Assembly: GCA_964016885.1 (NCBI GenBank)
Contig: CAXHJY010001042.1
Coordinates: 1-58,975, forward strand
Source of the DNA: Eledone cirrhosa
Lineage: Eukaryota
Length of the DNA: 58,975 bases
Direction: 5' to 3'
Position 1 is the first letter of the stretch, and each line of letters begins with the position of its first letter. Shown piece by piece: positions 14,441 to 58,426 of this stretch. A program made the position numbers and the translations under genes. The notes beneath the pieces are model-generated. The model saw only the letters and a list, made by a program, of their open reading frames with translations, ran no database searches and was not told where the DNA came from.

Positions 14441-14510
<70 letters not shown>

Positions 14511-15657
14511 ATATTTGGGGAGGGTCATATTTGCGTAATATTGCCAGAATTAATAACAGAACACACTCACTGTTTGGTTGGTTTTCGCTTCTCGCTGTCT
14601 TTTATATATATATATCTGCGATCTAACTTACTCGGTCCTCAATGTTGCCATTGACTGACCGGCGGTCAAAAATAATACAGATACAATATAGACAAACACA
14701 TATATATATAGTTTACATAATTTACATAAATCTTTCGTTGCACATCTGCAACATCGTCAGTGGTGTTATATTCATTGTTCCTCCTGTTGTGTTGTATGTC
14801 TACGCCATTTTTTTTGTTCAGTCTGTCTATATATTTATTTATTTATTTGCTTGTTTGTTTATCTTATTTTATTTTGTCTTCTTTGCGCATGCGTTTGCGT
14901 GTGTGTATAGTGTTATGTGTGATGTGTGACTAGTGTGTATAGTGTTGTGTCTGCTGGGTGACTAGTGTGTGTTTATGTGCTTGTGTATGTATTTATTTAT
15001 CTTATTTTATTTTATTTTATTTACTTATTTATTTATACTTCTCTTAGGTCAGTGTTGTTTGTTTGGGTGTTGTTGTTGTTCCACTCATTCTTTCTGTTTA
15101 GCTTTGGTCTTCTAATTTCTATTTCACTGGCCTCTCTGATTTGCCTATCTGCTGGGTCATTCCTATGTTTAGATATTATTCTAATTTCTATGTTGTCTAT
15201 GTTACCGTCATGTTGTTGTCTAGCATGTTCGTATAGTACTGACCCGTTTTTTCGTCCTTTTAGTTCCCCCCAGTTGTCGTGTTTCTGCAAGTACCCTCTG
15301 TACATCTTATGCTATAGACTACGTTTCTAGTTTTACAGTTTATCCGGGGGTTCACCTTACATATGATACATTTCCTATTGGTACAGTGGGTTTTCTTAAA
15401 AGGGTAGGTTTTGCTGATCAGGGATTTTATGGTGGTTCCTGGCTTTTCTACCACCTTTATTTTTAAGTGGGTCTTTCTCAGGGCCTTTCTACACTGGTTA
15501 GCTAATTTCCCTCCAGGGGTGGCGTCCACAAACATGACACTCTGATATCTCTGGTTGTCGTACCATGATGTGGCCTTCCCTATCTTATGTCTAGCCCTAT
15601 CTAAGCTATTCCATGATTTGCTCCTGTATAGTGGGCAAATTCCTTTCATGTCCAGTT

Positions 15658-18600
15658 CTAATTCATCGCCGCTATGGCATTAGCTTGTGCCAAGCTGAAA
15701 GGTTATTGAAAGACACTGTTTTCTGTTATATAAAAACTACAATAACAACAGAACAAATCCGCTTCTTAAAACACTGTGTTTCCTCCAAAACATACACAAC
15801 AAACATATCAAAACAAGTAAATAATTTATTATTGAACAAAACACAAGCTGAACGGCTAAAACACACAATAACAGTTAATATGAAAAGAACAACATACACA
15901 AAAGTCAACGCACTCTACAGACAAAAACGCATCAACGGTAAGGAAATCCGAAATCTCATCACAGCAAACGAGAGAGATGACTTCATGAGCGTCATCCGAC
16001 GCGAAACGAAATATGCTCAAAACGAATGCTGTAGGCATTTCAAGAAGAAATTAGAATGGATGAATAAGAAAAAACTACAAGAAAGGAAAATCGAATATTC
16101 TCAAAAATACCCAGATAACATCGACAACATCCGTATGAGTGATGTAAAACTACCGGAAGAATTTACCAATGACCACACAGTAAATATCTATGGGAACACT
16201 TTAATCAGTGAACAAGAACAACAAATCCTAAAGTTACCACCAAAATTTGCCATCTACAAAAAGATTAACCCTATGGAATGCAAAACGGAGCTGGAAAAGT
16301 GTTTCACAAAAATACGTTGGAATGCAAAGGTAAACAACAACAACAATAATAACGGTAGTAGTAATATAAACAATAACTCTGGGTATAGAAATAACAGCCA
16401 TAACCATAACAATGGCAGGAAAGTGAGAAATAGTGATAATGGTAATAATACTAGCGATAGACAGAACAACAACAACCACAATAATAATAATAATAGAAAC
16501 GTTAACCACAGACACAGCAACAGTGACCACAGTAGTAATAACGGTAACAATACGAACAACAACAACAACAATAACCACAGTGGTAATAATGGAAATAGTA
16601 CATGTAGCAACATCAACAAAAACAAGAAACATAATAATAGTAACAACCACAATGGTAGAAATAGCAGTAACAACAACAACAATAACGGTGAAGTAAACAA
16701 CAATACATCTAGCAATCATAACAATAATAATATTAATGCTAATGATAGAAACAACAACAACCACCATGATAACAATAATAGCAACACACACAACTATGAC
16801 GATAGAAATAACGACAACCCCTTAGAGAAACTATTTTTCAACCCAGCTGACAAAACATATAAGATGGGTAATATCTATCCTACGAGGTTACCCTTTAATA
16901 AAAGAGTTTGCATACCACAGCAAATAGATGACGAGACGGAGGCACAGTTCACCATAGCTAGAAATAAGATTAGACAAGTAGTAGACAGGTACACTATGAG
17001 ACAGAGCAGACCAGAGGCCCAACAACTTGGGATAAAACCTGTAGAAGGCTTGGTTAGCCTCAAGCAGCGCACAAGGGATGGTGAGGTAGTGTGTCTACCC
17101 ACAGATAAGTCCGGTAGGATGTCAATAGATAGCATGCCGAACTACATCGAGGCAATGCAACCCCACATCACCAACACGAGCGAAGTTGCACAACTAACAC
17201 ACGATGGGAGAGAAAAAATCCTCAACGCTCACATGATGATGTGGACTGACATCCTAAAGCCAAGCAGACGCACTGCCAACAACTTCCAGGCGTCTAACAA
17301 TGGCATACCACCCTTGTATGGGCTCCGCAAAGACCACAAGACAGTCGACGACCCGACAACAGGACCACCAACAAGACCCGTATGCGGAGCTAATATAGCT
17401 AGCAACTACAGGATCTCCTACTTCCTCTCGGTGGTTATGCGCCCCATAATCAATATGTCCCCAGATGTATGTGAAAGTACAGAGGACCTCCTCAGCGGAA
17501 TCAGTGAGTGCAACAAAAACAGGAGCCTATCCAACTGCATAATAGGCAGCATGGATGTGGTGTCACTGTACCCATCCATTAACATTGATTTTGCTGTGAA
17601 AAGATGTGTGGAGGTGATCATTGAGAGTGAGGTGGAGTTCTGCGACGTCGACACAGACGAACTGGGCCTCCTACTTAGACTTACCTACGACACTGACTAC
17701 CTAGACAGCCATGACCTTAGATGTTTCTGCCCTAGTAGACCTATAAGAGGTAGACCCCCCACCATAACCTCAATGGCTAAAAAGACTCCCATAGGAAGGT
17801 GGATTGGGTGGACCAAAGCTATACGGACCCCCCAAAACACTGATCAGGTAAGAAAAATGGTCGCACATGCAATAGGAGCTAGTATCAAAACTACCCTAAA
17901 GGGCCACATATTTAAGTTCAATGAGAAAATCTACACCCAATATGAGGGAGCAGCCATCGGCGTCAGCATAGCTGGTGATGTTGCCAACCTTTTCATGGTA
18001 TGGTGGGAAAGGAGACTTAAAGATCTCCTTAATGAAAGCTCCATAGACCTCATCATGTACTCTCGTTATGTAGACGATATCAATATAGTTATAAGAACAC
18101 CCCCACTAGAGAGCACTAACAAGTTTGATTTAGAACGTAGCACGATGGAAAGCATCCAGCAGATAGCTAATTCCATACACCAGAGTATAACTGTAACTAT
18201 AGACTTCCCTTCCAAACACCCTAACAATAGACTACCTGTATTAGACACAGAACTCTGGATTAACACTATAGACGAGAGAGCCCAAATTCTCCACTCACAC
18301 TATGCTAAACCCATGGCCTCCAAATACCTGATACTCAAAAACTCAGCAATGTCCAGTAGTGCTAAGTTTAATATTCTGATCGCAGATTTGGTACGAGTGA
18401 TGAAGAATGTGTTCAGCATGTGCGACCCAACAGAAATGGAAGGACACATCCAACACTTCATCAACCGCATGCAGTTCTCTGGCTACAACCAAAGAGACAG
18501 AGTCAGAGTATACGAAGGAGCCATGGAAAAGTATAAGACCCTCATAGAACTGGACATGAAAGGAATTTGCCCACTATACAGGAGCAAATCATGGAATAGC

Positions 18601-19224
18601 TTAGATAGGGCTAGACATAAGATAGGGAAGGCCACATCATGGTACGACAACCAGAGATATCAGAGTGTCATGTTTGTGGACGCCACCCCTGGAGGGAAAT
18701 TAGCTAACCAGTGTAGAAAGGCCCTGAGAAAGACCCACTTAAAAATAAAGGTGGTAGAAAAGCCAGGAACCACCATAAAATCCCTGATCAGCAAAACCTA
18801 CCCTTTTAAGAAAACCCACTGTACCAATAGGAAATGTATCATATGTAAGGTGAACCCCCGGATAAACTGTAAAACTAGAAACGTAGTCTATAGCATAAGA
18901 TGTACAGAGGGTACTTGCAGAAACACGACAACAACATACATAGGTGAGACAGCTCGTAGCATAGGTGAAAGGATAGACCAACACTGGGGGGAACTAAAAG
19001 GACGAAAAAACGGGTCAGTACTATACGAACATGCTAGACAACAACATGACGGTAACATAGACAACATAGAAATTAGAATAATATCTAAACATAGGAATGA
19101 CCCAGCAGATAGGCAAATCAGAGAGGCCAGTGAAATAGAAATTAGAAGACCAAAGCTAAACAGAAAGAATGAGTGGAACAACAACAACACCCAAACAAAC
19201 AACACTGACCTAAGAGAAGTATAA
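15658..19224 (+). CDS. PLE polyprotein: N-terminal domain, Asn-rich insert, reverse transcriptase, Cys-rich linker, C-terminal GIY-YIG endonuclease (Neptune-like layout). The true N-terminal codons lie at 19729-19797
   Basis: Motifs PTDKSG, LRKDHK, PTRPVC, GSMDVVSLYPSI, GAAIGVSIAGDVANLFM, RYVDD, LPVLD, CTNRKCIIC..C, NVVY..C..C..YIGET.R, E..LN. The ATG at 15613 in the ORF track lies in the inverted arm. Confidence 0.93.
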   Translation, partial: LIHRRYGISLCQAERLLKDTVFCYIKTTITTEQIRFLKHCVSSKTYTTNISKQVNNLLLNKTQAERLKHTITVNMKRTTYTKVNALYRQKRINGKEIRNLITANERDDFMSVIRRETKYAQNECCRHFKKKLEWMNKKKLQERKIEYSQKYPDNIDNIRMSDVKLPEEFTNDHTVNIYGNTLISEQEQQILKLPPKFAIYKKINPMECKTELEKCFTKIRWNAKVNNNNNNNGSSNINNNSGYRNNSHNHNNGRKVRNSDNGNNTSDRQNNNNHNNNNNRNVNHRHSNSDHSSNNGNNTNNNNNNNHSGNNGNSTCSNINKNKKHNNSNNHNGRNSSNNNNNNGEVNNNTSSNHNNNNINANDRNNNNHHDNNNSNTHNYDDRNNDNPLEKLFFNPADKTYKMGNIYPTRLPFNKRVCIPQQIDDETEAQFTIARNKIRQVVDRYTMRQSRPEAQQLGIKPVEGLVSLKQRTRDGEVVCLPTDKSGRMSIDSMPNYIEAMQPHITNTSEVAQLTHDGREKILNAHMMMWTDILKPSRRTANNFQASNNGIPPLYGLRKDHKTVDDPTTGPPTRPVCGANIASNYRISYFLSVVMRPIINMSPDVCESTEDLLSGISECNKNRSLSNCIIGSMDVVSLYPSINIDFAVKRCVEVIIESEVEFCDVDTDELGLLLRLTYDTDYLDSHDLRCFCPSRPIRGRPPTITSMAKKTPIGRWIGWTKAIRTPQNTDQVRKMVAHAIGASIKTTLKGHIFKFNEKIYTQYEGAAIGVSIAGDVANLFMVWWERRLKDLLNESSIDLIMYSRYVDDINIVIRTPPLESTNKFDLERSTMESIQQIANSIHQSITVTIDFPSKHPNNRLPVLDTELWINTIDERAQILHSHYAKPMASKYLILKNSAMSSSAKFNILIADLVRVMKNVFSMCDPTEMEGHIQHFINRMQFSGYNQRDRVRVYEGAMEKYKTLIELDMKGICPLYRSKSWNSLDRARHKIGKATSWYDNQRYQSVMFVDATPGGKLANQCRKALRKTHLKIKVVEKPGTTIKSLISKTYPFKKTHCTNRKCIICKVNPRINCKTRNVVYSIRCTEGTCRNTTTTYIGETARSIGERIDQHWGELKGRKNGSVLYEHARQQHDGNIDNIEIRIISKHRNDPADRQIREASEIEIRRPKLNRKNEWNNNNTQTNNTDLREV

Positions 19225-19494
19225 ATAAATAAGTAAATAAAATAAAATAAAATAAGATAAATAAATACATACACAAGCACATAAACACACACTAGTCACC
19301 CAGCAGACACAACACTATACACACTAGTCACACATCACACATAACACTATACACACACGCAAACGCATGCGCAAAGAAGACAAAATAAAATAAGATAAAC
19401 AAACAAGCAAATAAATAAATAAATATATAGACAGACTGAACAAAAAAAATGGCGTAGACATACAACACAACAGGAGGAACAATGAATATAACAC

Positions 19495-19532
19495 CACTGA
19501 CGATGTTGCAGATGTGCAACGAAAGATTTATG
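19495..19532 (+). ncRNA. Hammerhead-like core in the PLE pLTR (weak stem I); inverse copy near 14725-14762
   Basis: CTGACGA-T-GTTGCA gatg TGCAAC-GAAA-GATT-TA; only 2 clear bp of stem I. Confidence 0.55.
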
Positions 19533-19792
19533 TAAATTATGTAAACTATATATATATGTGTTTGTCTATATTGTATCTGTATTATTTTTGACCGCCGGTC
19601 AGTCAATGGCAACATTGAGGACCGAGTAAGTTAGATCGCAGATATATATATATAAAAGACAGCGAGAAGCGAAAACCAACCAAACAGTGAGTGTGTTCTG
19701 TTATTAATTCTGGCAATATTACGCAAATATGACCCTCCCCAAATATAACAATATCTGTTTCGACACACGATTTCATATAAAAAACCTCGCAA

Positions 19793-19895
<103 letters not shown>

Positions 19896-23417: not shown

Positions 23418-24459
23418 ATATATATAAATATATATATATATATAATTATTTCTGAAGACAGCATATATATGTGTAGGTATGTATATTCCCTCTGATAGTT
23501 TTTAAAAATTTTACATAGATCTATATGATATACATACCAACACATACATATATATCCTAGAAACGATCGTAAAATGATGAATTTTTTAATATAAAGAACT
23601 GTTTCTTTGTTTTTATTCATTATTTTTATTAATTTATATACATATATATATATGTATATAAATCAGGAAAGAAGGTTGGCATGGTTTGCTATACAAAAAA
23701 GGTTTTTATTTGTTACCCCGTATATATATATATATATATATCGAGAGTCGATCAACAATATCCCAGACCTCATTCGCTTAACGTTTCCGTTGGTCTTTCC
23801 AATTGCTATATATACATATATATATATTCATTTTATTAAGAGTAAATAGTGAGACTTGTTACTCCGGAGTTTCGTCTGCTTATCACAGGGTCATATATAT
23901 ATATGATTAATGACTTTTAGATTTAGAGATAAATCTATTTTAAAATATCGACTGTTCAACGTCTGTTATTGATAATGGAATTATTAAACCAGAAAAGATT
24001 AAAAAGTTGTTGTTGTCGTTGTTTAACCCTAGGTCAGCTCAGCGAGCACATCTTTTATCAAAGGTATTTCAGTCGTGTATATTCCGTTTTTCTATAAGTA
24101 TTTAGGTTAATTTTTTACCCAATTTTTTTCAAGATGGTAAGATATCATTGAAATGATATTTGGGTGCTATTTCTATCAGGTCCAGAAATCATATAGAGGC
24201 TCTGCCGAAACAGATAACTGAAGCAGATACCATAAACATCCTAGACTTCTTTTCTGTCATCTGCGCAATTTTCATGGGTCTGTATTCATAAATCGCCAGG
24301 CTGAGTTTCTCTGACAATAATATTGTATTATATCCTCTCATGAACTTTGCAAAACATAGTATAGATATTGCTTCATAATCATAGGGAACAGAATGACGAA
24401 GCGTTACGCCGGAGGATAGCTTGAGAGATGCGTTGAAATGTCCAAATGTAACGGAGTTT

Positions 24460-25903
24460 ATAAAATGGTTCTTCATAATTTTGTTCCCATGGTATATAAA
24501 ATGGTCCGTTATAATTTTGTTCCCATGGTATATAAAATGCTCCTTCATAATTTTGTTCCCATATTATATAAAAGTTCCTTCACAATTTTGTTCCCTTGGT
24601 ATATAAAAGGTCCTTCACAATTTTGTTCCCTTGGTATATAAAAGTTCCTTCACAATTTTGTTCCCATATTATAGAAAAGATTCTTCACAATTTTGTTCCC
24701 TTGGTATATAAAAGGTCCTTCACAATTTTGTTCCTTTGGTATATAAAATGTCCTTCACAATTTTGTTCCCTTGGTATATAAAAGGTCCTTCACAATTTTG
24801 TTCCCTTGGTATATAAAATGTCCTTCACAATTTTGTTCCCTTGGTATATAAAAGGTCCTTCACAATTTTGTTCCCTTGGTATATAAAAGGTCCTTCACAA
24901 TTTTGTTCCCTTGGTATATAAAAGGTCCTTCACAATTTTGTTCCCTTGGTATATAAAATGTCCTTCACAATTTTGTTCCCTTGGTATATAAAAGGTCCTT
25001 CACAATTTTGTTCCCTTGGTATATAAAAGGTCCTTCACAATTTTGTTCCCTTGGTATATAAAAGTTCCTTCACAATTTTGTTCCCATATTATAGAAAAGA
25101 TTCTTCACAATTTTGTTCCCTTGGTATATAAAAGGTCCTTCACAATTTTGTTCCTTTGGTATATAAAATGTCCTTCACAATTTTGTTCCCTTGGTATATA
25201 AAAGGTCCTTCACAATTTTGTTCCCTTGGTATATAAAAGGTCCTTCACAATTTTGTTCCCTTGGTATATAAAAGGTCCTTCACAATTTTGTTCCCTTGGT
25301 ATATAAAAGGTCCTTCACAATTTTGTTCCCTTGGTATATAAAAGGTCCTTCACAATTTTGTTCCCTTGGTATATAAAAGGTCCTTCACAATTTTGTTCCC
25401 TTGGTATATAAAATGTCCTTCACAATTTTGTTCCCTTGGTATATAAAAGGTCCTTCACAATTTTGTTCCCTTGGTATATAAAAGGTCCTTCACAATTTTG
25501 TTCCCTTGGTATATAAAATGTCCTTCACAATTTTGTTCCCTTGGTATATAAAAGGTCCTTCACAATTTTGTTCCCTTGGTATATAAAAGGTCCTTCACAA
25601 TTTTGTTCCCTTGGTATATAAAATGTCCTTCACAATTTTGTTCCCTTGGTATATAAAAGGTCCTTCACAATTTTGTTCCCTTGGTATATAAAAGGTCCTT
25701 CACAATTTTGTTCCCTTGGTATATAAAATGTCCTTCACAATTTTGTTCCCTTGGTATATAAAAGGTCCTTCACAATTTTGTTCCCTTGGTATATAAAAGG
25801 TCCTTCACAATTTTGTTCCCTTGGTATATAAAATGTCCTTCACAATTTTGTTCCCTTGGTATATAAAAGGTCCTTCACAATTTTGTTCCCTTGGTATATA
25901 AAA
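24460..25903. repeat. 35-bp minisatellite, ~41 units
   Basis: Unit TCCTTCACAATTTTGTTCCCTTGGTATATAAAAGG; variant block recurs at 420-bp spacing. Confidence 0.95.
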
Positions 25904-26103
25904 GAGTCATTGTCTTCTCTGTCAGGAAAAAAAAGATCAAATATCCGAGTGGTTCCATATTTCACTCTTCACGGTATATCTACTCTACGATATTTCTATA
26001 TTTTTATATTTATCTTCTATGAACTTTGTATAGTGTATTATTATTATACAACTGGCAGATTGCCTCAGCTCTGAGTAATTTGATGTCTGTCATGATAGTT
26101 CTA

Positions 26104-28310: not shown

Positions 28311-29554
28311 AATTTTTCAGCTCATCTCGATGCTTTTATAGCAATTTAGCTTTATTAGATGAACTATCACTAGTTCAATTGATTACTTACAATTGATTAC
28401 TTACAATTACTTACAATTCAGTAACATAAACTGGAAAGTGTTGATAATCTGTTCAATAGTAAGTTATCGTTTTGGTATGGCTAGGGAAGATTCAGAAAAT
28501 CTAATTTCCGTATAGTAAGTAATTCAATTGGGCCAAATTAAATGTCAAAGTTAGCTAAATGTTATATAAACATTCCTTCCGAGTTAATTGTTCACTTCAA
28601 TCAACCAGAGCATTTAGTATCTGCAAAGACTAGCAGAATCGTAAAATAAAACCTCAGCTGGTTGTGTTTGATTCAATATCTGTTGACATAAGTGATGGGT
28701 TTGACATTTAGTTCTTTATTTTGTTACCCTTTTCGAGTAAGAAAGAAAATGGCTTTCATTTGAAAAAATTAGTTTCTATTATCCAACATAATCGATGATC
28801 GTCACTAAGACATTTTTTTTATATTAATATTTCAGATGAATACTTAAAATGGAATCTTAAGTAATGCCAATATTTTTCAGTCGAAACTTTTTAACGTCTA
28901 AAGATTAAGAAGGGACCATAAAGATCTATGTTGGTTGTGGAAGTAGATTTAATATACACAGCGATTTTTGTTTTGGTTATTTTCATAATGCATTTGTTCA
29001 AGTATTTACATATTGACCAACTATTTAATCAATCAATTTTCGTTAGAGGCAACTCTAAAGTAATCGAATTTGAAGAGAGCGGGGATGGTTATAAAGTAAC
29101 CATTTACATTATGAGCATCTATTGAAAGGATTCTGCAGAAGTTAAAGTTTGACTGACTTATATAAATTTGAAGGAATACATTTTATGACGGCATAGCAAT
29201 AGAATGTAATTACTCTTGACTTTTGACAGACAAGATAGATTTCGATGTGCTTAAATTACAGAAATAACCAGAAACATAGCAAGATTATTTTGTTTTGACT
29301 TGCTCTTTACGAAAAGGTCGCTACGTTGGAATTGTAATCAAAATATTATATACTTCAGACCAATAATAAAAAAAAACTCGAAAGGACATTTCTTATCCAA
29401 CAAAATTATTTTTTGTGTCATGTTTATTCAAAATTCATAATAAATCGATATCCTATTTTCTGATAGAAATAAAAAGAAACAATAGTCCTCAAATAGTTTA
29501 TTTTATTCTTAGTTCTTTAATCAGATAAGGAAGCCAGATCAGTAATCTGATTGG

Positions 29555-29906
29555 AGCCCTAGTAATTTAGTGAAAGTCCTAGTAATCTGGTGTGAAACCT
29601 AGTAATCTACTGGAGCCCTAGTAATCTACTGGAAGCCCTAGTAATCTGTTGTGAGCCCTAGTAATTTAGTGAAAGTCCTAGTAATCTGGTGTGAAACCTA
29701 GTAATCTACTGGAGCCCTAGTAATCTACTGGAAGCCCTAGTAATCTGTTGTGAGCCCTAGTAATATAGTGAAAGTCCTAGTAATCTGGTGTGAAACCTAG
29801 TAATCTACTGGAGCCCTAGTAATCTACTGGAAGCCCTAGTAATATGTTGTGAGCCCTAGTAATATAGTGAAAGTCCTAGTAATCTGGTGTGGAACCTAGT
29901 AATCTA
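29555..29906. repeat. ~20-bp minisatellite with a 99-bp five-unit higher-order repeat
   Basis: CTAGTAAT every 19-20 nt; five spacer variants cycle ~3.5 times. Confidence 0.92.
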
Positions 29907-30562
29907 GCACCTAAAATAATGATTTCTACTATTGGCACAAGGCCAACAATTTTAGAGGAGGGGAAAATTGATTAAAACGACCCCATTGCATTACTCGTAC
30001 TTTATTTCATCGACCCCGTAAGGATGAAAGGCACAACAGCACCTAAAATAATGCTGGGTGGGTAGAACAATTTCAGTCTCTAAACTACTCCTTTGTATGG
30101 TCATCCTTAAGTACTCTAAAACGGTTTTCTGTTTTAGAGTATAAAAGATGTTATATATATATATATTAATGTATATATATTTATATAATAGACACTCAGC
30201 CTTTTGATAAAGTAGTCGTTGATAGAGATTCCAATGTTTCTATTGTATTATGGTTTTAATGAGCAGCTTTTGAATCTACTTTCAGACTAAAATCGCCACA
30301 GCATAACAATAATGGTACAATTTAACGGTACTATTAACGTTCACATTAATTACATATACATTACTGTTGTTCTTATGATATTGTGTGTACATATCATTTA
30401 TATGAATTTAATGTTCATAAAACTCTACGACAAAAAATTATAGGTTCTTTGAACCAGAAATAAACACAGATAGTATAGACATTTAAATAGATTGGCAACT
30501 TCTAAACAAGTTCTATGAGATAAGGTTTAGAATATTGGAAGTTGAATGATATTTCAAACTGA

Positions 30563-31998
30563 ATACACAACTATATACCACCTTACTAACACACAACTAT
30601 ATACCACCTTACTATTACACAACTATATACCACCTTACTAACACACAATTATATACCATCTTACTATTACACAACTATATACCATCTTACTATTACACAA
30701 CTATATATCACCTTACTATTACATAACTATATACCACCTTACTATTACACAACTATATACCACCTTACTAATACACAACTATATACCATCTTACTAATAC
30801 ACAACTATATACCACCTTACTAATACACAACTATATACCATCTTACTATTACACAACTATATACCACCTTACTATTACACAATTATATACCACCTTACTA
30901 TTACACAACTATATATCACCTTACTATTACATAACTATATACCACCTTACTGTTACACAACTATATACCACCTTACTAATACACAACTATATACCATCTT
31001 ACTAATACACAACTATATACCACCTTACTAATACACAACTATATACCACCTTACTAACACACAACTATATACCACCTTACTAATACACAACTATATACCA
31101 CCTTACTAATACACAACTATATACCACCTTACTAATACACAACTATATACCACCTTACTAATATACAACTATATACCACCTTACTAATACACAACTATAT
31201 ATCACAACTATATATCACCTTACTAACACACAACTATATACCACCTTACTATTACACAACTATATACCATCTTACTAACACACAACTATATACCATCTTA
31301 CTAACACACAACTATATATCATCTTACTATTACACAACTATATATCACAACTATATACCACCTTACTAACACACAACTATATACCATCTTACTAACACAC
31401 AACTATATATCACAACTATATACCACCTTACTAACACACAACTATATACCATCTTACTAATACACAACTATATACCATCTTACTAATACACAACTATATA
31501 CCATCTTACTAACACAACTATATATCACAACTATATACCACCTTACTAATACACAACTATATACCATCTTACTAACACAACTATATATCACAACTCTATA
31601 CCACCTTACTAACACACAACTATATATCACAACTATATACCATCTTACTAACACACAACGATATACCATCTTACTAATACACAACTATATATCACAACTA
31701 TATACCACCTTACTAACACACAACTATATATCACAACTATATATCACCTTACTAATACACAACTATATACCAGCTTACTAACACACAACTATATATTACA
31801 ACTATATATCATCTTACTAACACACAACTATATACCACCTTACTAATACACAACTATATACCACTTTACTAACACACAACTATATATCACAACTATATAC
31901 CACCTTACTAATACACAACTATATACCACCTTACTAACACACAACTATATATCACAACTATATACCACCTTACTAATACACAACTATATACCATCTTA
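30563..31998. repeat. 26-bp minisatellite with 13-bp half-unit variants
   Basis: Unit ACACAACTATATACCACCTTACTAA(C/T). Confidence 0.95.
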
Positions 31999-35759: not shown

Positions 35760-38290
35760 TTGAATCTTGTCGGCAAGTAATAGAAGTGATTTCCATACGG
35801 CGGCTTAAGTACCCCCTCATACAAGTCTCTGATATTCAAATGATTAAAAGGTATCAGTAGATGGGTACTCAAGAGTCATAACCTGGATATGTTTTGATCA
35901 CACACATACAAGATTTTTTCTGAATACGTAACTTAAACTTCCCTCGAACCATCTTATGGTCTGTGTAGCATTCTGCACTACGCATGACACGCACATTACA
36001 GACATCATTCAGGTCGCATATCCGGGTTACTATGAAATCTATCATGTGGCTGTCCTTTGATCTTGGGTATATCCAGGTAACTTTATTCTTCTTTTGGCGG
36101 AAGAATGTATTGCAAATTGCTAGGTTGAGTTGCAAACAGAACACAAGCAGCTTCAAACCATTGACATTCATCTTACCGATGCCGTAATAGCCCAGTGCAT
36201 CCCATGTCTCGTGGTCTCTGCCAACTCGGGCATTGAAATCACCAAGAATGATCACTTTTTCTTCGCTGGAGTATATGCAATTGTAGATGCGAAGGGATTT
36301 ATAGAATGTCATAATACTTTCTTCACTGGCCTGGAGATTTGGAGCATAAACTGACAGAATTGTTGCACATCGCCCATGTACAACTTCATTATACGGTCAC
36401 TGATTCCAGAGGGGCACTCTAAATGTTGTACTAGAGTTTCTCACACTGCAAAACCTACACCACCATCTCGCCGTTCTCCTTTTGGTTTCCCTGTCCAGAA
36501 AAGTAAGAAACGTGATGATGCTTCAGCCAGCTGATCACACCCTGATAGACATGTTTCTGACAAGGTTGCAATATCTATATTTACTCTTTGGAGTTTGAAT
36601 AATATTGACTTCGATGGAACGTGGATAAACTTCAGGGATCAATCGTATACAGCAGGAGCAGATTAACTTGGATTCAGGACGAAAAACAACATAAAGACTG
36701 GTTTAATGACAATAATCTAATAAACTATTAAAGAAAAAACATGCTCTTCAGGGAGAATGCCCTACGAATTTAACTTCTATTGAAAAGTCATATAAAGAAT
36801 ATAAAGAATATGAAGCCACGAGCTGAGAAGGCTTAAAAATGGTGGTTGAAGATCTCTGAATATAGTCAAAGTGCTAATAGTGCAAAGGATTCAACAACTT
36901 CGTCCAACAACTTTATGTCCAACAACTTTGTCTATTGTTCCTGTCAGGTCCAAAGATGACACTGCATTCATCAAAGAATCAGAGAAAATCCTTAAGCGTT
37001 GGCAAGAACATTTCACTGATTTATTTGATAATCCATCATCAATTGATCATGATGTGCTAGAAGGCATCCCCCAATGTGTTGTAAATTTTAAAATGGATCG
37101 ATTACCAGATTATAATGAGGTTAAAATGGCCATCAACCAGTTAAACACGGGTAGGCACCTGGATCAGATGGAATCCTTGTGTAATTGTTAAAGGTTGGTA
37201 ATAAGAACATAACACAAACAATACTCCATCTCATCACAGAGTGGTGGACTGGAGCTCCTATACCACAAGATTAGATATATGGTATGTTTTGCAGCTTCTT
37301 GTAATACCTTGGCATGAATATTAATCTAAAAAGGACCAAGGTAATGTTCACTCCTTCACCAGGGTAAGCATATATTGAGCCAAATATAATGGTGCATGGA
37401 ACTAGGTTGGGTGTAGTTGACACTTTTGTTTACCTGGGTAGTGCATTATCAAGAGATGGTTCACTGGATGCAGAAATACACCTGCGCGTTCAGAAGGCCT
37501 CTTTAGCCTTCGCAAAACTGGAAAAGAGAGTGTAGGTGGATCATGGCATCAATATCAAGACCAACACTAGTGTGTACAAGGCCTGCATTCTGAGTGCTCT
37601 GTTGTGCTCTTCAGAAACGTGGACAGTACATCGTAGACACCTTAATTTCCTTGAACACGTTAAGCAAAAGAGGTTAATACGAATCCTAAACAACAAATAG
37701 CAACAAAAAATACCTGACACACATATCCTTATAGATGCTCGTTGCACGAGCATTGAATCTGCCATGCTGGGCGCATGAATGAGGAAAGACTCCCAAAACA
37801 ACTATTTTACGGTCAATTGCTCACTGGGAAACGCCCTCAGCACAAACCAAGAAAAATATATAAGGATTGCATAAAAAAGAACCTTAAAAATCTACAATTT
37901 GAACTTAATAAGAACATAGGGAGCTGGATTTGTGATGGGTGTGGTCGTTTATTGCTCTCTAAATCTGGCTACATCACTCATTTAAAATCACATTAAGCCA
38001 ACTGTATGTAGCTCTATCCCTCCAATGCTAGGTGAGACAAAATGTGTGGTGTGCAAAAAGACCTGCAAATCAATCTCTGGTCTTAAAAGACATATGAGGG
38101 TACATAAGGATGATATCCCACAAAGTGACCCAATAAATCCAATAGAGGGCACATCTTTTGCCTGTCACACTTGCTGCAAACCTTGCAAATCTAATGCTGG
38201 ATTTAAAAGTCACCTAAGGGGTCAGGGACGGACGTTTGGAGTTGGTGATGGTTGATAGGGGTGCATAGAAAGATAGCAATTATCTGCAAA
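35760..38290. mobile_element. Decayed RTE-clade LINE: APE endonuclease on - (35760-36595); partial RT and C2H2 fingers on + (36600-38290)
   Basis: ILGDFNARVG, HMIDFIV, TDH; RWQEHF..LFD, ERLPKQLFYGQL, CxxC..H fingers; many lesions. Confidence 0.85.
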
Positions 38291-38441
38291 GATAAAGCAA
38301 TCACCATATAGATAAACCATATATATATGTATATATGTATATATATGTATATGTATATATGTATATATATATGTATATATGTATATATATATATATGTAC
38401 GTATGTATGCGTATCTGATATGTATGTATAGATATGTATGA

Positions 38442-38487
<46 letters not shown>

Positions 38488-38778
38488 TGAAACAAAATGA
38501 AAACGAAATTTCATTTCTCACTCTTAGTATGGCACTTACATAAATGTAAGTATGCATGTATACGTACATACATATATGTATACAGACGTACAGTAGCATG
38601 CACATATATATATATATATACACATACATATGCATACAGGTACACATACATATATGCACGTATCAGTTTAGCGGCGCTAACGTCGCTTTGTTCGTTTGTA
38701 AACAAACTGAACAGCCTGAATTTATGCCATACGGTGTTAAGGCAACCACGTCACCTTTTTGTTCAACACTGACACAGG

Positions 38779-38823
38779 AACGATGTACTAGTTTCAAGCT
38801 TGTTAGCTATCATCAGCACCGTT
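38779..38823 (-). ncRNA. Same minimal hammerhead on - strand, 8 copies at 38779 + n*460
   Basis: Exact reverse complement of 42182-42226. Confidence 0.92.
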
Positions 38824-41800
38824 TACCCATCTGCCAGATAGTTGAACGTTCGAAAGTATATACTTTCCTTATGAAAATTAACGGCTGAGCAGCCTAATTT
38901 GCATATTGAGTGAGTTAAATCGGTCAGGCATACCGAAAACGATAAATTGAAACAAAATGAAAACGAAATTTCATTTCTCACTCTTAGTATGGCACTTACA
39001 TAAATGTAAGTATGCATGTATACGTACATACACATATGTATACAGACGTACAGTAGCATGCACATATATATATATATATACACATACATATGCATACAGG
39101 TACACATACATATATGCACGTATCAGTTTAGCGGCGCTAACGTCGCTTTGTTCGTTTGTAAACAAACTGAACAGCCTGAATTTATGCCATACGGTGTTAA
39201 GGCAACCACGTCACCTTTTTGTTCAACACTGACACAGGAACGATGTACTAGTTTCAAGCTTGTTAGCTATCATCAGCACCGTTTACCCATCTGCCAGATA
39301 GTTGAACGTTCGAAAGTATATACTTTCCTTATGAAAATTAACGGCTGAGCAGCCTAATTTGCATATTGAGTGAGTTAAATCGGTCAGGCATACCGAAAAC
39401 GATAAATTGAAACAAAATGAAAACGAAATTTCATTTCTCACTCTTAGTATGGCACTTACATAAATGTAAGTATGCATGTATACGTACATACATATATGTA
39501 TACAGACGTACAGTAGCATGCACATATATATATATATATACACATACATATGCATACAGGTACACATACATATATGCACGTATCAGTTTAGCGGCGCTAA
39601 CGTCGCTTTGTTCGTTTGTAAACAAACTGAACAGCCTGAATTTATGCCATACGGTGTTAAGGCAACCACGTCACCTTTTTGTTCAACACTGACACAGGAA
39701 CGATGTACTAGTTTCAAGCTTGTTAGCTATCATCAGCACCGTTTACCCATCTGCCAGATAGTTGAACGTTCGAAAGTATATACTTTCCTTATGAAAATTA
39801 ACGGCTGAGCAGCCTAATTTGCATATTGAGTGAGTTAAATCGGTCAGGCATACCGAAAACGATAAATTGAAACAAAATGAAAACGAAATTTCATTTCTCA
39901 CTCTTAGTATGGCACTTACATAAATGTAAGTATGCATGTATACGTACATACATATATGTATACAGACGTACAGTAGCATGCACATATATATATATATATA
40001 CACATACATATGCATACAGGTACACATACATATATGCACGTATCAGTTTAGCGGCGCTAACGTCGCTTTGTTCGTTTGTAAACAAACTGAACAGCCTGAA
40101 TTTATGCCATACGGTGTTAAGGCAACCACGTCACCTTTTTGTTCAACACTGACACAGGAACGATGTACTAGTTTCAAGCTTGTTAGCTATCATCAGCACC
40201 GTTTACCCATCTGCCAGATAGTTGAACGTTCGAAAGTATATACTTTCCTTATGAAAATTAACGGCTGAGCAGCCTAATTTGCATATTGAGTGAGTTAAAT
40301 CGGTCAGGCATACCGAAAACGATAAATTGAAACAAAATGAAAACGAAATTTCATTTCTCACTCTTAGTATGGCACTTACATAAATGTAAGTATGCATGTA
40401 TACGTACATACATATATGTATACAGACGTACAGTAGCATGCACATATATATATATATATACACATACATATGCATACAGGTACACATACATATATGCACG
40501 TATCAGTTTAGCGGCGCTAACGTCGCTTTGTTCGTTTGTAAACAAACTGAACAGCCTGAATTTATGCCATACGGTGTTAAGGCAACCACGTCACCTTTTT
40601 GTTCAACACTGACACAGGAACGATGTACTAGTTTCAAGCTTGTTAGCTATCATCAGCACCGTTTACCCATCTGCCAGATAGTTGAACGTTCGAAAGTATA
40701 TACTTTCCTTATGAAAATTAACGGCTGAGCAGCCTAATTTGCATATTGAGTGAGTTAAATCGGTCAGGCATACCGAAAACGATAAATTGAAACAAAATGA
40801 AAACGAAATTTCATTTCTCACTCTTAGTATGGCACTTACATAAATGTAAGTATGCATGTATACGTACATACATATATGTATACAGACGTACAGTAGCATG
40901 CACATATATATATATATATACACATACATATGCATACAGGTACACATACATATATGCACGTATCAGTTTAGCGGCGCTAACGTCGCTTTGTTCGTTTGTA
41001 AACAAACTGAACAGCCTGAATTTATGCCATACGGTGTTAAGGCAACCACGTCACCTTTTTGTTCAACACTGACACAGGAACGATGTACTAGTTTCAAGCT
41101 TGTTAGCTATCATCAGCACCGTTTACCCATCTGCCAGATAGTTGAACGTTCGAAAGTATATACTTTCCTTATGAAAATTAACGGCTGAGCAGCCTAATTT
41201 GCATATTGAGTGAGTTAAATCGGTCAGGCATACCGAAAACGATAAATTGAAACAAAATGAAAACGAAATTTCATTTCTCACTCTTAGTATGGCACTTACA
41301 TAAATGTAAGTATGCATGTATACGTACATACATATATGTATACAGACGTACAGTAGCATGCACATATATATATATATATACACATACATATGCATACAGG
41401 TACACATACATATATGCACGTATCAGTTTAGCGGCGCTAACGTCGCTTTGTTCGTTTGTAAACAAACTGAACAGCCTGAATTTATGCCATACGGTGTTAA
41501 GGCAACCACGTCACCTTTTTGTTCAACACTGACACAGGAACGATGTACTAGTTTCAAGCTTGTTAGCTATCATCAGCACCGTTTACCCATCTGCCAGATA
41601 GTTGAACGTTCGAAAGTATATACTTTCCTTATGAAAATTAACGGCTGAGCAGCCTAATTTGCATATTGAGTGAGTTAAATCGGTCAGGCATACCGAAAAC
41701 GATAAATTGAAACAAAATGAAAACGAAATTTCATTTCTCACTCTTAGTATGGCACTTACATAAATGTAAGTATGCATGTATACGTACATACATATATGTA

Positions 41801-42181
41801 TACAGACGTACAGTAGCATGCACATATATATATATATATACACATACATATGCATACAGGTACACATACATATATGCACGTATCAGTTTAGCGGCGCTAA
41901 CGTCGCTTTGTTCGTTTGTAAACAAACTGAACAGCCTGAATTTATGCCATACGGTGTTAAGGCAACCACGTCACCTTTTTGTTCAACACTGACACAGGAA
42001 CGATGTACTAGTTTCAAGCTTGTTAGCTATCATCAGCACCGTTTACCCATCTGCCAGATAGTTGAACGTTCGAAAGTATATACTTTCCTTATGAAAATTA
42101 ACGGCTGAGCAGCCTAATTTGCATATTGAGTGAGTTAAATCGGTCAGGCATACCGAAAACGATAAATTGAAACAAAATGAA

Positions 42182-42226
42182 AACGGTGCTGATGATAGCT
42201 AACAAGCTTGAAACTAGTACATCGTT
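42182..42226 (+). ncRNA. Minimal type I hammerhead ribozyme (also at 42642, 43102, 43562)
   Basis: AACGGTG-CTGATGA-T-AGCT aaca AGCT-T-GAAA-CTAG-TA-CATCGTT: 7-bp stem I, intact core, palindromic stem III, GUA site cut after 42219. Confidence 0.92.
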
Positions 42227-43989
42227 CCTGTGTCAGTGTTGAACAAAAAGGTGACGTGGTTGCCTTAACACCGTATGGCATAAATTCAGGCTGTTCAGTT
42301 TGTTTACAAACGAACAAAGCGACGTTAGCGCCGCTAAACTGATACGTGCATATATGTATGTGTACCTGTATGCATATGTATGTGTATATATATATATATA
42401 TGTGCATGCTACTGTACGTCTGTATACATATATGTATGTACGTATACATGCATACTTACATTTATGTAAGTGCCATACTAAGAGTGAGAAATGAAATTTC
42501 GTTTTCATTTTGTTTCAATTTATCGTTTTCGGTATGCCTGACCGATTTAACTCACTCAATATGCAAATTAGGCTGCTCAGCCGTTAATTTTCATAAGGAA
42601 AGTATATACTTTCGAACGTTCAACTATCTGGCAGATGGGTAAACGGTGCTGATGATAGCTAACAAGCTTGAAACTAGTACATCGTTCCTGTGTCAGTGTT
42701 GAACAAAAAGGTGACGTGGTTGCCTTAACACCGTATGGCATAAATTCAGGCTGTTCAGTTTGTTTACAAACGAACAAAGCGACGTTAGCGCCGCTAAACT
42801 GATACGTGCATATATGTATGTGTACCTGTATGCATATGTATGTGTATATATATATATATATGTGCATGCTACTGTACGTCTGTATACATATATGTATGTA
42901 CGTATACATGCATACTTACATTTATGTAAGTGCCATACTAAGAGTGAGAAATGAAATTTCGTTTTCATTTTGTTTCAATTTATCGTTTTCGGTATGCCTG
43001 ACCGATTTAACTCACTCAATATGCAAATTAGGCTGCTCAGCCGTTAATTTTCATAAGGAAAGTATATACTTTCGAACGTTCAACTATCTGGCAGATGGGT
43101 AAACGGTGCTGATGATAGCTAACAAGCTTGAAACTAGTACATCGTTCCTGTGTCAGTGTTGAACAAAAAGGTGACGTGGTTGCCTTAACACCGTATGGCA
43201 TAAATTCAGGCTGTTCAGTTTGTTTACAAACGAACAAAGCGACGTTAGCGCCGCTAAACTGATACGTGCATATATGTATGTGTACCTGTATGCATATGTA
43301 TGTGTATATATATATATATATGTGCATGCTACTGTACGTCTGTATACATATATGTATGTACGTATACATGCATACTTACATTTATGTAAGTGCCATACTA
43401 AGAGTGAGAAATGAAATTTCGTTTTCATTTTGTTTCAATTTATCGTTTTCGGTATGCCTGACCGATTTAACTCACTCAATATGCAAATTAGGCTGCTCAG
43501 CCGTTAATTTTCATAAGGAAAGTATATACTTTCGAACGTTCAACTATCTGGCAGATGGGTAAACGGTGCTGATGATAGCTAACAAGCTTGAAACTAGTAC
43601 ATCGTTCCTGTGTCAGTGTTGAACAAAAAGGTGACGTGGTTGCCTTAACACCGTATGGCATAAATTCAGGCTGTTCAGTTTGTTTACAAACGAACAAAGC
43701 GACGTTAGCGCCGCTAAACTGATACGTGCATATATGTATGTGTACCTGTATGCATATGTATGTGTATATATATATATATATGTGCATGCTACTGTACGTC
43801 TGTATACATATATGTATGTACGTATACATGCATACTTATATATATATATATAAACGGAAAAAATGAAACGATATTTATAATAAATGTTCGGTGAATCCAT
43901 ACGTGCATATATATATGTGTGCATGTATGTATATATATATATACATACTACTGTACGTCGGTATACATATATATATGTACGTGTACATA

Positions 43990-44048
<59 letters not shown>

Positions 44049-44987: not shown

Positions 44988-44990
<3 letters not shown>

Positions 44991-45575
44991 TGTTATACTT
45001 TGGGAGGGTCATGTTGCCAATAAGAAACACACGCACCAGTTGCTTTCACTTCAATTTATTATATATTTATAAATTTACAAATTTATAAATTTCTGGTTGG
45101 TTGGTTGGTTCCACAACCAGATAGTTGTTTATATATAGTCATAGTTCTTTCGTCACACACTCTGTGACCTCTTCAGTGACTGGGGATTCCTTTCTTTGTT
45201 TCTGTGCCTCTCCTTTGTTCTGTCCTACGCCATTTTGTTTCTGTGTGTGTGTTGTGTGCTCAGTCTGCGCATGCACCACATCCGGGTGTCTGTGTGTGTT
45301 TATGTTCATTTATCTATTTGTTTATTTACTGAAGAGGTCACAGAGTGTGTGACGAAAGAACTATGACTATATATAAACAACTATCTGGTTGTGGAACCAA
45401 CCAACCAACCAGAAATTTATAAATTTGTAAATTTATAAATATATAATAAATAAGTGAAAGCAACTGGTGCGTGTGTTTCTTATTGGCAACATGACCCTCC
45501 CAAAGTATAACAATATCGGTTTCAACACACGATTTCAGATAAAGAATCTTGCTAAACAAATTCAGAAACGAAATA
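44988..45575. mobile_element. Inverted pLTR pair of a sister family of the intact PLE, HHR on both arms; shorter copies at 57635-57883 and 58332-58383
   Basis: - arm HHR AGTCA-CTGAAGA-G-GTCACA gagtg TGTGAC-GAAA-GAAC-TA-TGACT (45137-45181); terminus ATGACCCTCCCAAAGTATAACAATATC resembles 19729 onward. Confidence 0.88.
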
Positions 45576-52645: not shown

Positions 52646-55532
52646 TTTGATTTATTGGCCACAAGGGCCGACATGTAGGGGCAATACAAAGACAGGGACA
52701 GTGGGGGGTTTACAATAAGGTGGAGTAAAAGTGCACAATGGCAAGACTAATTTAACAATGAAGATGTACAAATATAAAATAAACTATGTATAAATATAAC
52801 AAAATAAATTCCCCTATAGGGGGTGGACGACTTAGGGGTAACTGAGGTACCCCATCAATCCTGAACCACCCTGCGTTTCTAGGGCACACAGGGAGAGCAC
52901 CCCTCTCCTCAAATTAGCTAGTCTATAGGCGCATGGTCAGAGTAGGCCCATTCACACGGGCCATTCTCGCCACATTCATCCACCTTTTAGCAAATGTACT
53001 GGGGGGCAGGGCAGCACTTCTCTCTCCACCCTCACCTTCCTTTCCAGGTGAAACTTGAAGAAGTTGATGAGGGATTGGCCGAAGAGAAAAGTGTCTGTCT
53101 TCAGTCCTTTCAATCTAGTCCACCATATAACCTCTTTTGCAACGGCCACTAGACAGAGGAAAATTGCCTGCTCTTCCTGACCTAAAGAAGGCGGCGGGTC
53201 GATCTTCACTATGGACTCGGCCGATAGCCGGATCCGTTCTACACGTTACAGTAGCTGTTCGACATAACTGCACAAGTCAGTAATACACGGACATTGGACA
53301 AGTGTCTGCAGAACGGTTTCGTCGCTCTGTGCGCATCTTGGGCAGGTCCGTCTGACAGCACTTCTGTGCCTGTAGAGTTTATCCCGAACCGGCAGTGCCC
53401 CCCGGTAGCACTGCCAAGCGAAGGATTTCCGGAAATTGTCCATCGTCCCCGGCGCGAAAGTGCTCCGGAACAGACTGCGGGAGGGCTCGTCTGATAAACG
53501 GCGACCACACCTGTTCACCGTTTAGGCAGAATATCTGGAGATGTCTCAGCCTCAGCGCATGTCTGCGCATCATTAGTCACGGCATGCCCAGCCCTCCGCG
53601 TAGAGGGTGCTGGCAGCAGATGGACCGCCTCACCAACGGAAATTGTCTTCTCCACAAGAATTTGAAGAGGAGCCGTTCCAACTTGACGAGGCGCGGACGG
53701 GGGCAAGGGACGACGGTCAGGCGGTAGTAGATGACAGACGCGACGTACGCATTCTCCACCTACGTGCGACCCATTTTTGGGTGAGACTGACTACCCTGTT
53801 CGTTACCTCGTCCCAATTCTTATCCACCTGGAGGTCTGGCCCGAACCAAACCCCTAGCAACTTTACCGGTCCGTCCGTCCAGCGCCCAAAGACGCTGTTG
53901 GACGGCATGGACTTGCCTCTCCAGGTGCCGAGTTGCAAGCCCACCGACTTTTCTGGGTTAAGTTTTGCTCCCGTCAACCTTTCATATTCCTCCAATAAGT
54001 TGCCGACCACCTCGATTTCTGAGGTGTCCGACACCATCACGGTGATGTCGTCCGCATAAGCCGACACAGCCCTTCCACGTCCCGGTTCTAGCGGGATGCC
54101 CTGCAACAGCTCCAGCTTCCGCAGTAAAGTCTCGTGAGTCAATACGTACAGAAAGGAAGAGAGAGGGCACCCTTGACGGACCGATCGGGAGAGCCGAAAT
54201 AGTTCCGAGAGGTGGCCATTAACCTTGACCACCGAACATGTGCCGCTCTGCATTGTAGCGATCCAGCTTCTGAAGACAGCCTCCAGATACCGGTGGTCGA
54301 CCCTCGACGACAAGCGCCAATCTCTTTGCTAACACCTTGGCCAAAATCTTAAACTTTGTGTTGAGCAGAGTTATGGGCCTGAAGTTGTCTAACGTATCCC
54401 TCTTGTTCTCGTCTTTCCTTATCAGCATCACCACTCCCCTGCTCACAGAACTGGGAATACTCCGATTCTGCTGCTAGTTACAGTAGAGCGCTTCGAGGAG
54501 ACCGGAGAACAAGTCTGGCATATTTACGTAAAGCTCGTAGGGCAGGCCATCCAACCCGGGTGACTTGCGCCTCATGCAGCCGACAAGGGCGTACTGAATT
54601 TCGACTGAAGTAATCGGCCTTTCGCAGCGCCCAGCGTCGACCGTCGAGATGCGTGACAAGCCGTCAAGGTAGGCACTGAAATCCGCTACTCTCTCTGACC
54701 CGCCACTCTCCCCGAACAACCGATCAAAGTGCTGGCGAAAGGCCTCACACATCCGCTTGGAATCGCTTATCTCGTGTCCGTCTTGGTCCGCCAAAGACCG
54801 AATTGTGGTTTTATTACCACGGTGCGCCTCCGCTACGTGGGCCCATCGAACAGCTTTGGTTCCCTCGTTTCTCAGCGCACGCGCCTTAGCTCTGACAATG
54901 CAACCTTCGTGTTTCGCATTGAAGAAATGGTCTAATGCCATTCTCGCTGCTAGCACATCAGTTGCAATGCCACTACAAATAGCCTCGTCTAACTTATCTA
55001 CCAGCTCCCCCTCCTTTCTATTTTTCTCTAACGCTAGTTCTTTGCTGAACTCTATCGAAGTTACTCTAATCTCTCTTTTGAGAGCCCCCCTCCCACCATC
55101 TGTTGTTGATGACCCCCCCCCCCCCCTTGTCAACTTTTGCTTAACTAAATTGTTGCCTCGGCCCCTGTAAGCCTTACGTGCCGGAAATGACATGTTCAGC
55201 TTCCAGTAACCCCGTCCTAACGCGTTTTATCTAGGTCGACTATACAGATCACAAATTTGTGATCTGAATAGGCGACCGTTTTAAAAAGTGGGAAGCCTAC
55301 ACTATTTCTATCTATTTTCCTAATGAAGATCCTGTCTACATACGATCTAGATGACCGTATGCGGATGGTCCACGTCCACACTGGCACAGTGGGGAAATCT
55401 AGTCGATACCTGTCAGATAGTTGGAACTGGCTGATTAGGTGCTTGAGGCTTTTACACCCCCCCCCCCCTCTCCTATCAGCTACTCCCACATAATCCCAGC
55501 GTGCGTCTAAGATGCCGTTCCAGTCCTCCGGA
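52590..55532 (-). mobile_element. Decayed L1-clade (Tx1-like) LINE ORF2 ending in a (TTA)n tract
   Basis: SDH, KSPGLDGLPYELY, NFRPITLLN..KILAK, VRQGCPLS, AYADD, C-terminal CPRC..ET knuckle; AATAAA before the tail. Confidence 0.9.
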
Positions 55533-58338: not shown

Positions 58339-58426
58339 ATACTTTGGGAGGGTCATGTTGCCAATAAGAAACACACGCACCAATTATATATATATATATA
58401 TATATATAATTATATGTATATATAAT

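What the first reader, a model, noticed from the sequence alone, without database searches (positions are those of the whole stretch)
38482..43838. Young 460-bp hammerhead (retrozyme-like) concatemer: 12 identical ribozymes in a head-to-head array
Seen: each non-coding monomer carries a perfect minimal type I HHR with a palindromic stem III (ACTAGT). Copies are identical except one substitution, even across internal TA runs. Both arms point their 3' ends outward into (TA)n, the same geometry as the PLE at 14.5-19.8 kb. Known: tandem HHR repeats (newt satellite 2, schistosome SM-alpha, metazoan non-LTR retrozymes) give monomeric and circular RNAs, and minimal HHRs with palindromic stem III cleave as dimers. 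Inferred: a single insertion made by rolling-circle reverse transcription of a 460-nt circular RNA using PLE RT/EN, i.e. a viroid-like parasite of the PLEs.
Basis: partly seen in the sequence, partly recalled or inferred. Interest (0 to 1): 0.92.

Follow-up and report, generated by a model that had tools for sequence, protein, structure and literature searches.

The report
Penelope-mobilised hammerhead retrozyme array
This block of twelve near-identical, ribozyme-carrying 460-base repeats is one insertion of a very abundant jumping RNA in an animal genome, and the shape of its many copies suggests that a Penelope-type reverse transcriptase copies small RNA circles round and round into TA repeats, a route that had been proposed but not shown.

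Summary
In detail: two head-to-head arms (8.05 + 3.6 units of 460 bp), 12 type I hammerhead motifs, one substitution. It is one insertion of a very large family: 10,198 exact ribozyme copies, plus 9,371 in an older sister family. This is a non-LTR retrozyme, a known kind. What is new is the insertion anatomy. Arms meet head-to-head (75 junctions in 92 loci). They end at two fixed sites 65 nt apart in (TA)n, one arm at each: 24-28 of 37, never both at the outer site. That is the Penelope-like 'tail' signature. Units are often clonal across both arms, and some arrays repeat with period 2 or 5 (1.6 turns of a pentamer), as rolling-circle copying of RNA circles predicts. Covariation supports the hammerhead and a folded monomer. 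Not shown: cleavage, any RNA or circle, or which PLE supplies the enzyme; the neighbouring PLE has unrelated ends. Corrections: stem II opens with U-U, and 3' ends are fixed, not permuted. The scan noted a similar ribozyme-less repeat in another genome.

The parts
38482..42185 (-). Left arm: 8.05 units of the 460-bp monomer, 8 hammerheads; its 3' end is the outer start site B (monomer position 343, counting from 42181), running into (TA)n
42181..43838 (+). Right arm: 3.6 units, 4 hammerheads; its 3' end is the inner start site A (monomer position 278), running into (TA)n
42181..42185 (.). Head-to-head junction with a 5-nt microhomology
42182..42226 (+). Type I hammerhead (first of 12): 7-bp stem I, CUGAUGA core, U-U plus 4-bp stem II, GAAA, palindromic stem III; predicted cut after 42219
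   Evidence: sequence; stem I covariation G-U/U-G/A-U
42336..42451 (+). TA/CA-rich segment predicted to form a long hairpin; its length haplotype is array-specific
42459..42523 (+). 65-nt 'tail' between start sites A and B; terminal on one arm of each two-armed insertion only
42465..42465 (+). Array-specific variant (T where the family has A), in all 11 units that cover it, on both arms
42561..42568 (+). Octamer motif ATGCAAAT, kept in 23 of 24 representative units; possible snRNA-type promoter element (motif meaning recalled, untested)
38451..38481 (.). (TA)n target, left flank
43839..43850 (.). (TA)n target, right flank
43851..43993 (.). Small two-armed insertion of the older sister family (B end left, A end right) in the same TA hot spot
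   Evidence: by eye against L109; weak profile hit, E 0.48
14503..19797 (+). Young autonomous Penelope-like element (open frame 15595-19224; own, different hammerhead at 19497+ and 14760-; inverted arm plus tail). Same geometry; candidate, unproven enzyme donor

Best explanation
The array is one recent insertion of a non-autonomous, non-LTR retrozyme mobilised in trans by a Penelope-like RT/GIY-YIG protein. Steps: (1) an existing array is transcribed as a multimer (inferred). (2) Hammerheads, probably as dimers through the palindromic stem III, cut after GUA and release mostly monomers, sometimes dimers or longer (inferred from structure; about 0.8). (3) A host ligase such as RtcB closes circles (from literature on other retrozymes). 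(4) A PLE protein nicks both strands of a (TA)n tract and primes reverse transcription from each, one strand at site A and the other at site B, 65 nt apart (end pattern shown genomically; enzyme inferred; about 0.93). (5) Each RT runs round the circle several times and stops at a random point (about 0.7). (6) The two cDNA ends join by microhomology, giving the head-to-head array with 3' ends outward (pattern shown).
For: Dispersed and abundant: 10,198 exact 39-nt hammerheads and 9,371 in a sister family, controls 0. Polarity: 75 head-to-head junctions in 92 loci against 7 opposite switches, 6 of them across a TA run. Fixed ends: 859 exact site-B ends into TATATA against 4,528 read-throughs. 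Of 37 B-anchored loci the inverted partner ends at A in 24 (strict pattern) or 28 (BLAST) and at B in 0; the same two ends recur in the family that is 82-84% identical. This matches the PLE tail (two RT start sites, both strands extended; PMC11167929) and the inverted 5'-truncated copy (PMC8557442). Clonality: in 10 of 18 arrays with 3 or more units at least 60% of units are identical; in 5 of these the modal unit occurs in no other sampled locus. The window's variant has 32 hits: 11 in the window, 12 in one other array, 3 in a third, 6 single. Period-n arrays: ABAB in L231 (A/B differ by 14-16, B/B by 0) and L235; a pentamer run 1.6 times in L232 (u1=u6, u2=u7, u3 shares its variant with u8), which one tandem duplication cannot make. 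5' junctions do not pile up at the cut site (13 of 123 within 30 nt, p=0.23). RNA-level constraint: 7 pairs with two-sided and 34 with one-sided change among 116; 98.8% of cells paired against 28-44% for slid partners; z=-4.8 without the TA segment.
Against: No RNA evidence of any kind: no run is listed as RNA. No PLE with homologous ends was found among the loci held or in the window. 8 of 18 multi-unit arrays are heterogeneous, which fits ageing or multimeric templates but also long linear transcripts. Purifying selection on the hammerhead is only suggestive (Fisher p=0.088). Ligation scars are not enriched at the cut site: 2 of 16 multi-nucleotide deletions abut it, both with possible microhomology. 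Only 1 of 9 Xenopus retrozyme dimers cleaved in vitro, and in the one reconstituted PLE the hammerhead was dispensable and uncleaved RNA was the main template. The structure used for the covariation count came from the same alignment, which favours it.
Confidence: 0.72

Rival explanations
1. PLE-mobilised, but the template is a long uncleaved linear transcript of an existing array; circles are by-products or absent, and homogeneity comes from young source arrays.
For: Uncleaved RNA was the dominant substrate of the anole PLE in vitro; mosaic arrays such as L070 (17 units, 7 modal); uniform 5' ends fit this too; one 1-nt deletion is fixed in 11 separate arrays (36 of 64 hits), which homogeneous sources would also give.
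Against: It cannot fix a new variant in all units without a one-unit bottleneck, yet 19 array-fixed private substitutions occur outside the hammerhead, and a ribozyme-destroying 7-nt deletion is in all 5 hammerheads of one array and nowhere else. It cannot create a 1.6-fold pentamer repeat.
Confidence: 0.15
2. A short PLE-type insertion that grew afterwards as a satellite by unequal crossover or slippage (the local-amplification model of Li, Clavereau and Pollet 2026).
For: Published model; a block duplicated out of phase with the cut site is seen in L232 (u4/u5), so local duplication does happen.
Against: Both arms would have to expand independently in hundreds of loci; arrays with no divergence between units are already long (10-12 units); the youngest subfamily averages about 5 read-throughs per end; non-integer period-5 repeat.
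Confidence: 0.07
3. The RT jumps between linear cleaved monomers (R2-like template jumping; recalled), building multimers without circles.
For: It would give head-to-tail units joined at the cut site; three independent junctions lie 4 nt after the cut.
Against: Jumps should mix variants and leave varied junction errors; indels at the cut site are rare (42 deletions and 19 insertions in a 34-nt window against about 10,000 intact); no excess of 5' ends at the cut.
Confidence: 0.05
4. Assembly artefact (collapsed or fold-back array on a small unplaced contig).
For: The window is a whole 59-kb unplaced contig; no raw long reads were seen; no second or empty allele in the assembly.
Against: The same two-armed design with different ends on the two arms occurs at dozens of loci on 50-440 Mb scaffolds; a fold-back artefact would give symmetric arms.
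Confidence: 0.01

Closest known systems
Metazoan non-LTR retrozymes (Cervera and de la Pena 2020, PMC7229834; mussel, coral, axolotl; newt satellite 2)
   Same: Non-coding tandem repeats of low GC, one type I hammerhead per unit with weak palindromic stem III, thousands of copies, coexisting with PLEs; U-U at the base of stem II as in axolotl HHR_Amex2.
   Different: Monomer of 420-540 bp, above the 170-400 nt given there. In the sections read, no head-to-head arms, fixed start sites or targets are described; the circle-to-tandem-cDNA step and the PLE partner are hypotheses there. Expression and cleavage were shown there, not here.
Vertebrate non-LTR retrozymes as PLE derivatives (Li, Clavereau and Pollet 2026, 10.64898/2026.07.22.740005)
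   Same: Proposed hijacking of PLE machinery; co-occurrence with PLEs.
   Different: Their evidence is co-distribution and pLTR homology, and they favour local amplification; here no pLTR homology was found, and the evidence is insertion anatomy and periodicity.
EN+ Penelope-like elements (Craig et al. 2021, PMC8557442; Frangieh et al. 2024, PMC11167929)
   Same: Inverted 5'-truncated arm, tail at one end only, two internal RT start sites downstream of a hammerhead, AT/(TA)n targets.
   Different: No ORF; tail 65 nt rather than 30-40; many turns per arm; in vivo the two sites are used one per arm, whereas the in vitro work saw no strand difference.
Non-autonomous Chlamys PLEs such as MRC1 (PMC8557442)
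   Same: [quoted passage not shown]
   Different: The Naiad/Chlamys group is described as lacking canonical hammerheads, and these elements resemble their autonomous partner at the 3' end; no such partner was found here.

Membership tests
Non-LTR retrozyme | Short tandem repeat with one type I hammerhead per unit | tested here: met
   12 of 12 cores intact in the window
Non-LTR retrozyme | No protein-coding capacity, no LTR | tested here: met
   no ORF of 150 aa or more in 38.4-43.9 kb; pure tandem units; PBS/PPT not searched separately
Non-LTR retrozyme | Dispersed, high copy number, mobile | tested here: met
   unrelated flanks
Non-LTR retrozyme | Self-cleavage as monomer or dimer | not testable with these tools
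   structure and covariation only; selection test p=0.088
Non-LTR retrozyme | Expressed as monomer-length circular RNA | tested here: inconclusive
   no RNA holder listed; contigs cannot tell a circle from a tandem repeat
Type I hammerhead ribozyme | Core CUGANGA / GAAA / NUH with stems I, II, III | tested here: met
   sequence; N7 and stem I vary compatibly between families
Type I hammerhead ribozyme | Watson-Crick pair 10.1-11.1 closing stem II; Rfam match | tested here: not met
   U-U in both families; no hammerhead among the 150 listed Rfam hits. A U-U variant that cleaves is published, and a second family here has it too
PLE-mobilised element | Inverted 5'-truncated arm; tail at one end; AT-rich target | tested here: met
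PLE-mobilised element | Sequence homology to the pLTR of an autonomous PLE | tested here: inconclusive
   none among the loci held or the window's PLEs; the genome's PLE families were not surveyed in full
Autonomous PLE | RT plus GIY-YIG ORF | tested here: not met
Viroid-like RNA replicon | RNA-to-RNA replication, often ribozymes in both polarities | tested here: inconclusive
   no antisense hammerhead core in the monomer; other ribozyme classes only through Rfam; no RNA data

The most novel reading that the evidence does not exclude
The genome holds a fossil record of double rolling-circle target-primed reverse transcription: a dimeric PLE protein primes both strands of a (TA)n site on one ribozyme-made RNA circle, one subunit at each of two fixed sites, and both roll. 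Circles of 1, 2 or 5 units explain arrays with those periods, and lineages whose ribozyme dies insert once and leave no daughters. This would name the enzyme class and template for animal retrozymes and explain the PLE tail and inverted arm in one scheme.
Probability: 0.45. Interest if true: 0.78.

Novelty: new member of a known kind. Interest (0 to 1): 0.6.

Why it matters
How animal retrozymes move is open: the 2020 review says the repeats show no motif that points to their partner, and the 2026 preprint says the mechanism remains to be elucidated. This family gives genomic evidence for both missing links, a PLE-type enzyme and a circular template, with exact predictions (cut site, two start sites, target) that the existing in vitro PLE assay can test. 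It also shows strict one-site-per-arm pairing, which bears on how PLEs make their inverted arm and tail, and a way for satellite arrays with higher-order repeats to be born full length. The searches made (open-access library only) listed no paper describing this anatomy for a retrozyme; most subscription papers and all supplements were not seen.

Tried and rejected
DNA search of the own genome with the monomer returned nothing because common words are skipped; patterns were used instead. Rfam gave only sub-threshold miRNA-like hairpins. Pfam found no family in the three PLE-like frames, so the PLE call rests on motifs read by eye (recalled) and on structure; no clade was assigned. Sequencing runs: no RNA holder listed. 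Contigs of 4 of 6 runs were laid: three hold the monomer, two as a single wrap-around contig, which a tandem repeat gives as well as a circle, so no weight is put on it. Ligation-scar test: no enrichment at the cut site. Run-off at the cut site: none. Permuted 3' ends: rejected. Partner search: no pLTR homology; PLE fragments next to copies are separate insertions. Empty allele: none in the assembly. Six of the first nine units of L140 were dropped before the counts because they overlap L070; L138 and L139 were picked for sharing the window's variant, and L231, L232 and L235 for uneven spacing or for carrying the shared 1-nt deletion, so they are not random samples. Twelve further arrays that I wanted to inspect were not fetched. 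Lunse et al. 2017 and Coats et al. 1994 are not held; PMC8490949 passages had no bearing. The host was not identified; a cephalopod was a hunch from recall, used only as a search term.
Full report
Observation. The array is as described. TRF finds period 460 with 8.1 and 3.6 copies. Direct comparison shows the right arm identical to the monomer from 42181 to 43838 and the left arm, on the minus strand from 42185 to 38482, with one substitution at 39033. The arms share a 5-nt microhomology and both run outward into (TA)n. Twelve hammerhead cores are present, with a 7-bp stem I, a palindromic ACUAGU stem III and a predicted cut after 42219. The motif is not canonical: stem II opens with U-U. Rfam lists no hammerhead among the 150 matches shown, and the isolated motif's MFE is another fold. 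A U-U variant that cleaves weakly alone and better as a dimer is described in axolotl (PMC7229834, part 3 of 6 read).

Family. The window is a whole 59-kb contig of a 3.0-Gb genome. An exact 39-nt pattern has 10,198 hits (control 0), and a sister family 82-84% identical has 9,371 more. Between families the variable core position and the stem II loop change, and one stem I pair is G-U, U-G or A-U. An alignment of 24 representative units gives 116 pairs, 7 with two-sided and 34 with one-sided change; 98.8% of cells pair, against 28-44% for slid partners. The structure came from the same alignment, so this is supportive, not proof. The monomer folds at z=-7.5, and at z=-4.8 without its TA-rich segment. 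Substitutions shared between loci avoid the invariant core, while single-unit ones hit it, but the count is not significant (4:37 against 19:63, p=0.088).

Insertion anatomy. In 92 loci there are 75 head-to-head junctions and 7 opposite switches, 6 of those across a TA run. The 3' ends are fixed: site A (monomer position about 278) and site B (about 343), both running into (TA)n. For the youngest subfamily, 859 places end exactly at B and 4,528 read through. Of 37 loci anchored at a B end, the inverted partner ends at A in 24 by a strict pattern or 28 by BLAST; none ends at B, and the rest have no scored partner. The older family uses the same two ends. Inner junctions fall anywhere in the unit, often with 1-6 nt of overlap (39 of 75). 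This is the signature of Penelope-like elements: an inverted 5'-truncated copy and a tail at one end only (PMC8557442, passages), the tail lying between two RT start sites, with both target strands cut and extended (PMC11167929, parts 1-2 of 4). The PLE at 14.5-19.8 kb shows exactly this and belongs to a large young family (17,095 candidates; nearly all 150 scored at 99% identity), but its ends share no detectable sequence with the monomer. The donor is therefore unnamed.

Template. Of 18 arrays with three or more full units, 10 have at least 60% identical units, including the microsatellite haplotype; in 5 the modal unit occurs in no other sampled locus; 8 are heterogeneous. The window's own variant has 32 hits genome-wide: 11 in the window, 12 in one other two-armed array of period 470, 3 in a third array, and 6 single. 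One array carries a 7-nt deletion beside the cut site in all 5 hammerheads and has no relatives, whereas a 1-nt deletion outside the ribozyme has spread to 11 arrays. Deletions are not enriched at the cut (2 of 16), so this is one suggestive case. Among arrays picked for inspection, L231 and L235 alternate ABAB, L231 with a stem I mismatch in every second ribozyme, and L232 runs 1.6 times through five distinct units. A single tandem duplication cannot give the last pattern; rolling round a five-unit circle can. 5' ends do not pile up at the cut site (13 of 123, p=0.23), which argues against linear cleaved monomers as templates but does not separate circles from long uncleaved transcripts.

Mechanism and odds. 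Shown at DNA level: dispersal, polarity, two paired start sites, TA targets, clonality, period-n arrays, RNA-type covariation. Inferred: transcription, cleavage (about 0.8), ligation, a PLE enzyme (about 0.93), a circular template (about 0.7). Against: no RNA data, no partner, only 1 of 9 frog dimers cleaved in vitro, and the anole PLE did not need its ribozyme in vitro.

What is known. Non-LTR retrozymes are an established class, with circles shown in coral, mussel and axolotl, and with PLE mobilisation and tandem cDNA from circles proposed (PMC7229834, passages and parts 3-4 of 6; review PMC7761336, passages). A 2026 preprint links them to PLE pLTRs and suggests local amplification (parts 1-3 of 5 read; its supplements were not seen). 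Opposite-strand pairs of minimal hammerheads were noted for schistosome PLEs (PMC4209133, part 1 of 4), and multicopy non-autonomous PLEs are known in Chlamydomonas. PMC6765202 was seen as passages. PMC2220036 (passages) states that newt satellite 2 has an snRNA-type promoter; the link to the octamer kept in 23 of 24 units here is recalled and untested. Supplementary Figure S9 of PMC7229834, which draws the model, was not seen.

Verdict. A real, young insertion of a new and very abundant non-LTR retrozyme family. The kind is known. The value lies in the genomic evidence for PLE-driven, probably rolling-circle insertion, which makes an open question directly testable. Interest 0.6.

Noticed in passing
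L031:5150-7001: A second, unrelated two-armed hammerhead repeat family (period 310) with the same design: U-U opening a 4-bp stem II, palindromic stem III (ACGCGU), cut after GUA.
   Followed up: partly
window 44990-45570: Two-armed insertion made only of the pLTR (with hammerheads at 45176- and 45329+) of a second PLE family, whose ORF end is seen in L063; it shares an 11-nt word with the monomer.
   Followed up: partly
window 11365, 20228, 23069/23228, 34242: A family of degenerate hammerhead-like motifs in AT-rich elements, one as a head-to-head pair; origin unknown.
   Followed up: no
window 20570/20654: Another head-to-head pair with a hammerhead-like core inside a perfect inverted repeat.
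   Followed up: no
window 15595-19224: PLE open frame with a long Asn-rich insert; no Pfam hit; many intact 1217-aa frames genome-wide, in tandem (about 4.1 kb period) and head-to-head.
   Followed up: partly
window 3836-4477 and 58410-58922: Fragments of two further PLE-like families (motifs read by eye).
   Followed up: no
window 35869-38310 and 53717-55226: Broken LINE-like elements; the first ends in the TA tract that holds the array.
   Followed up: no
window 24459-25904, 29541-29906, 30562-31998: Minisatellites of period 35, 99/20 and 26.
   Followed up: no
L235: In this dimer-periodic array the A start and the B start appear to lie in different units of the dimer.
   Followed up: no
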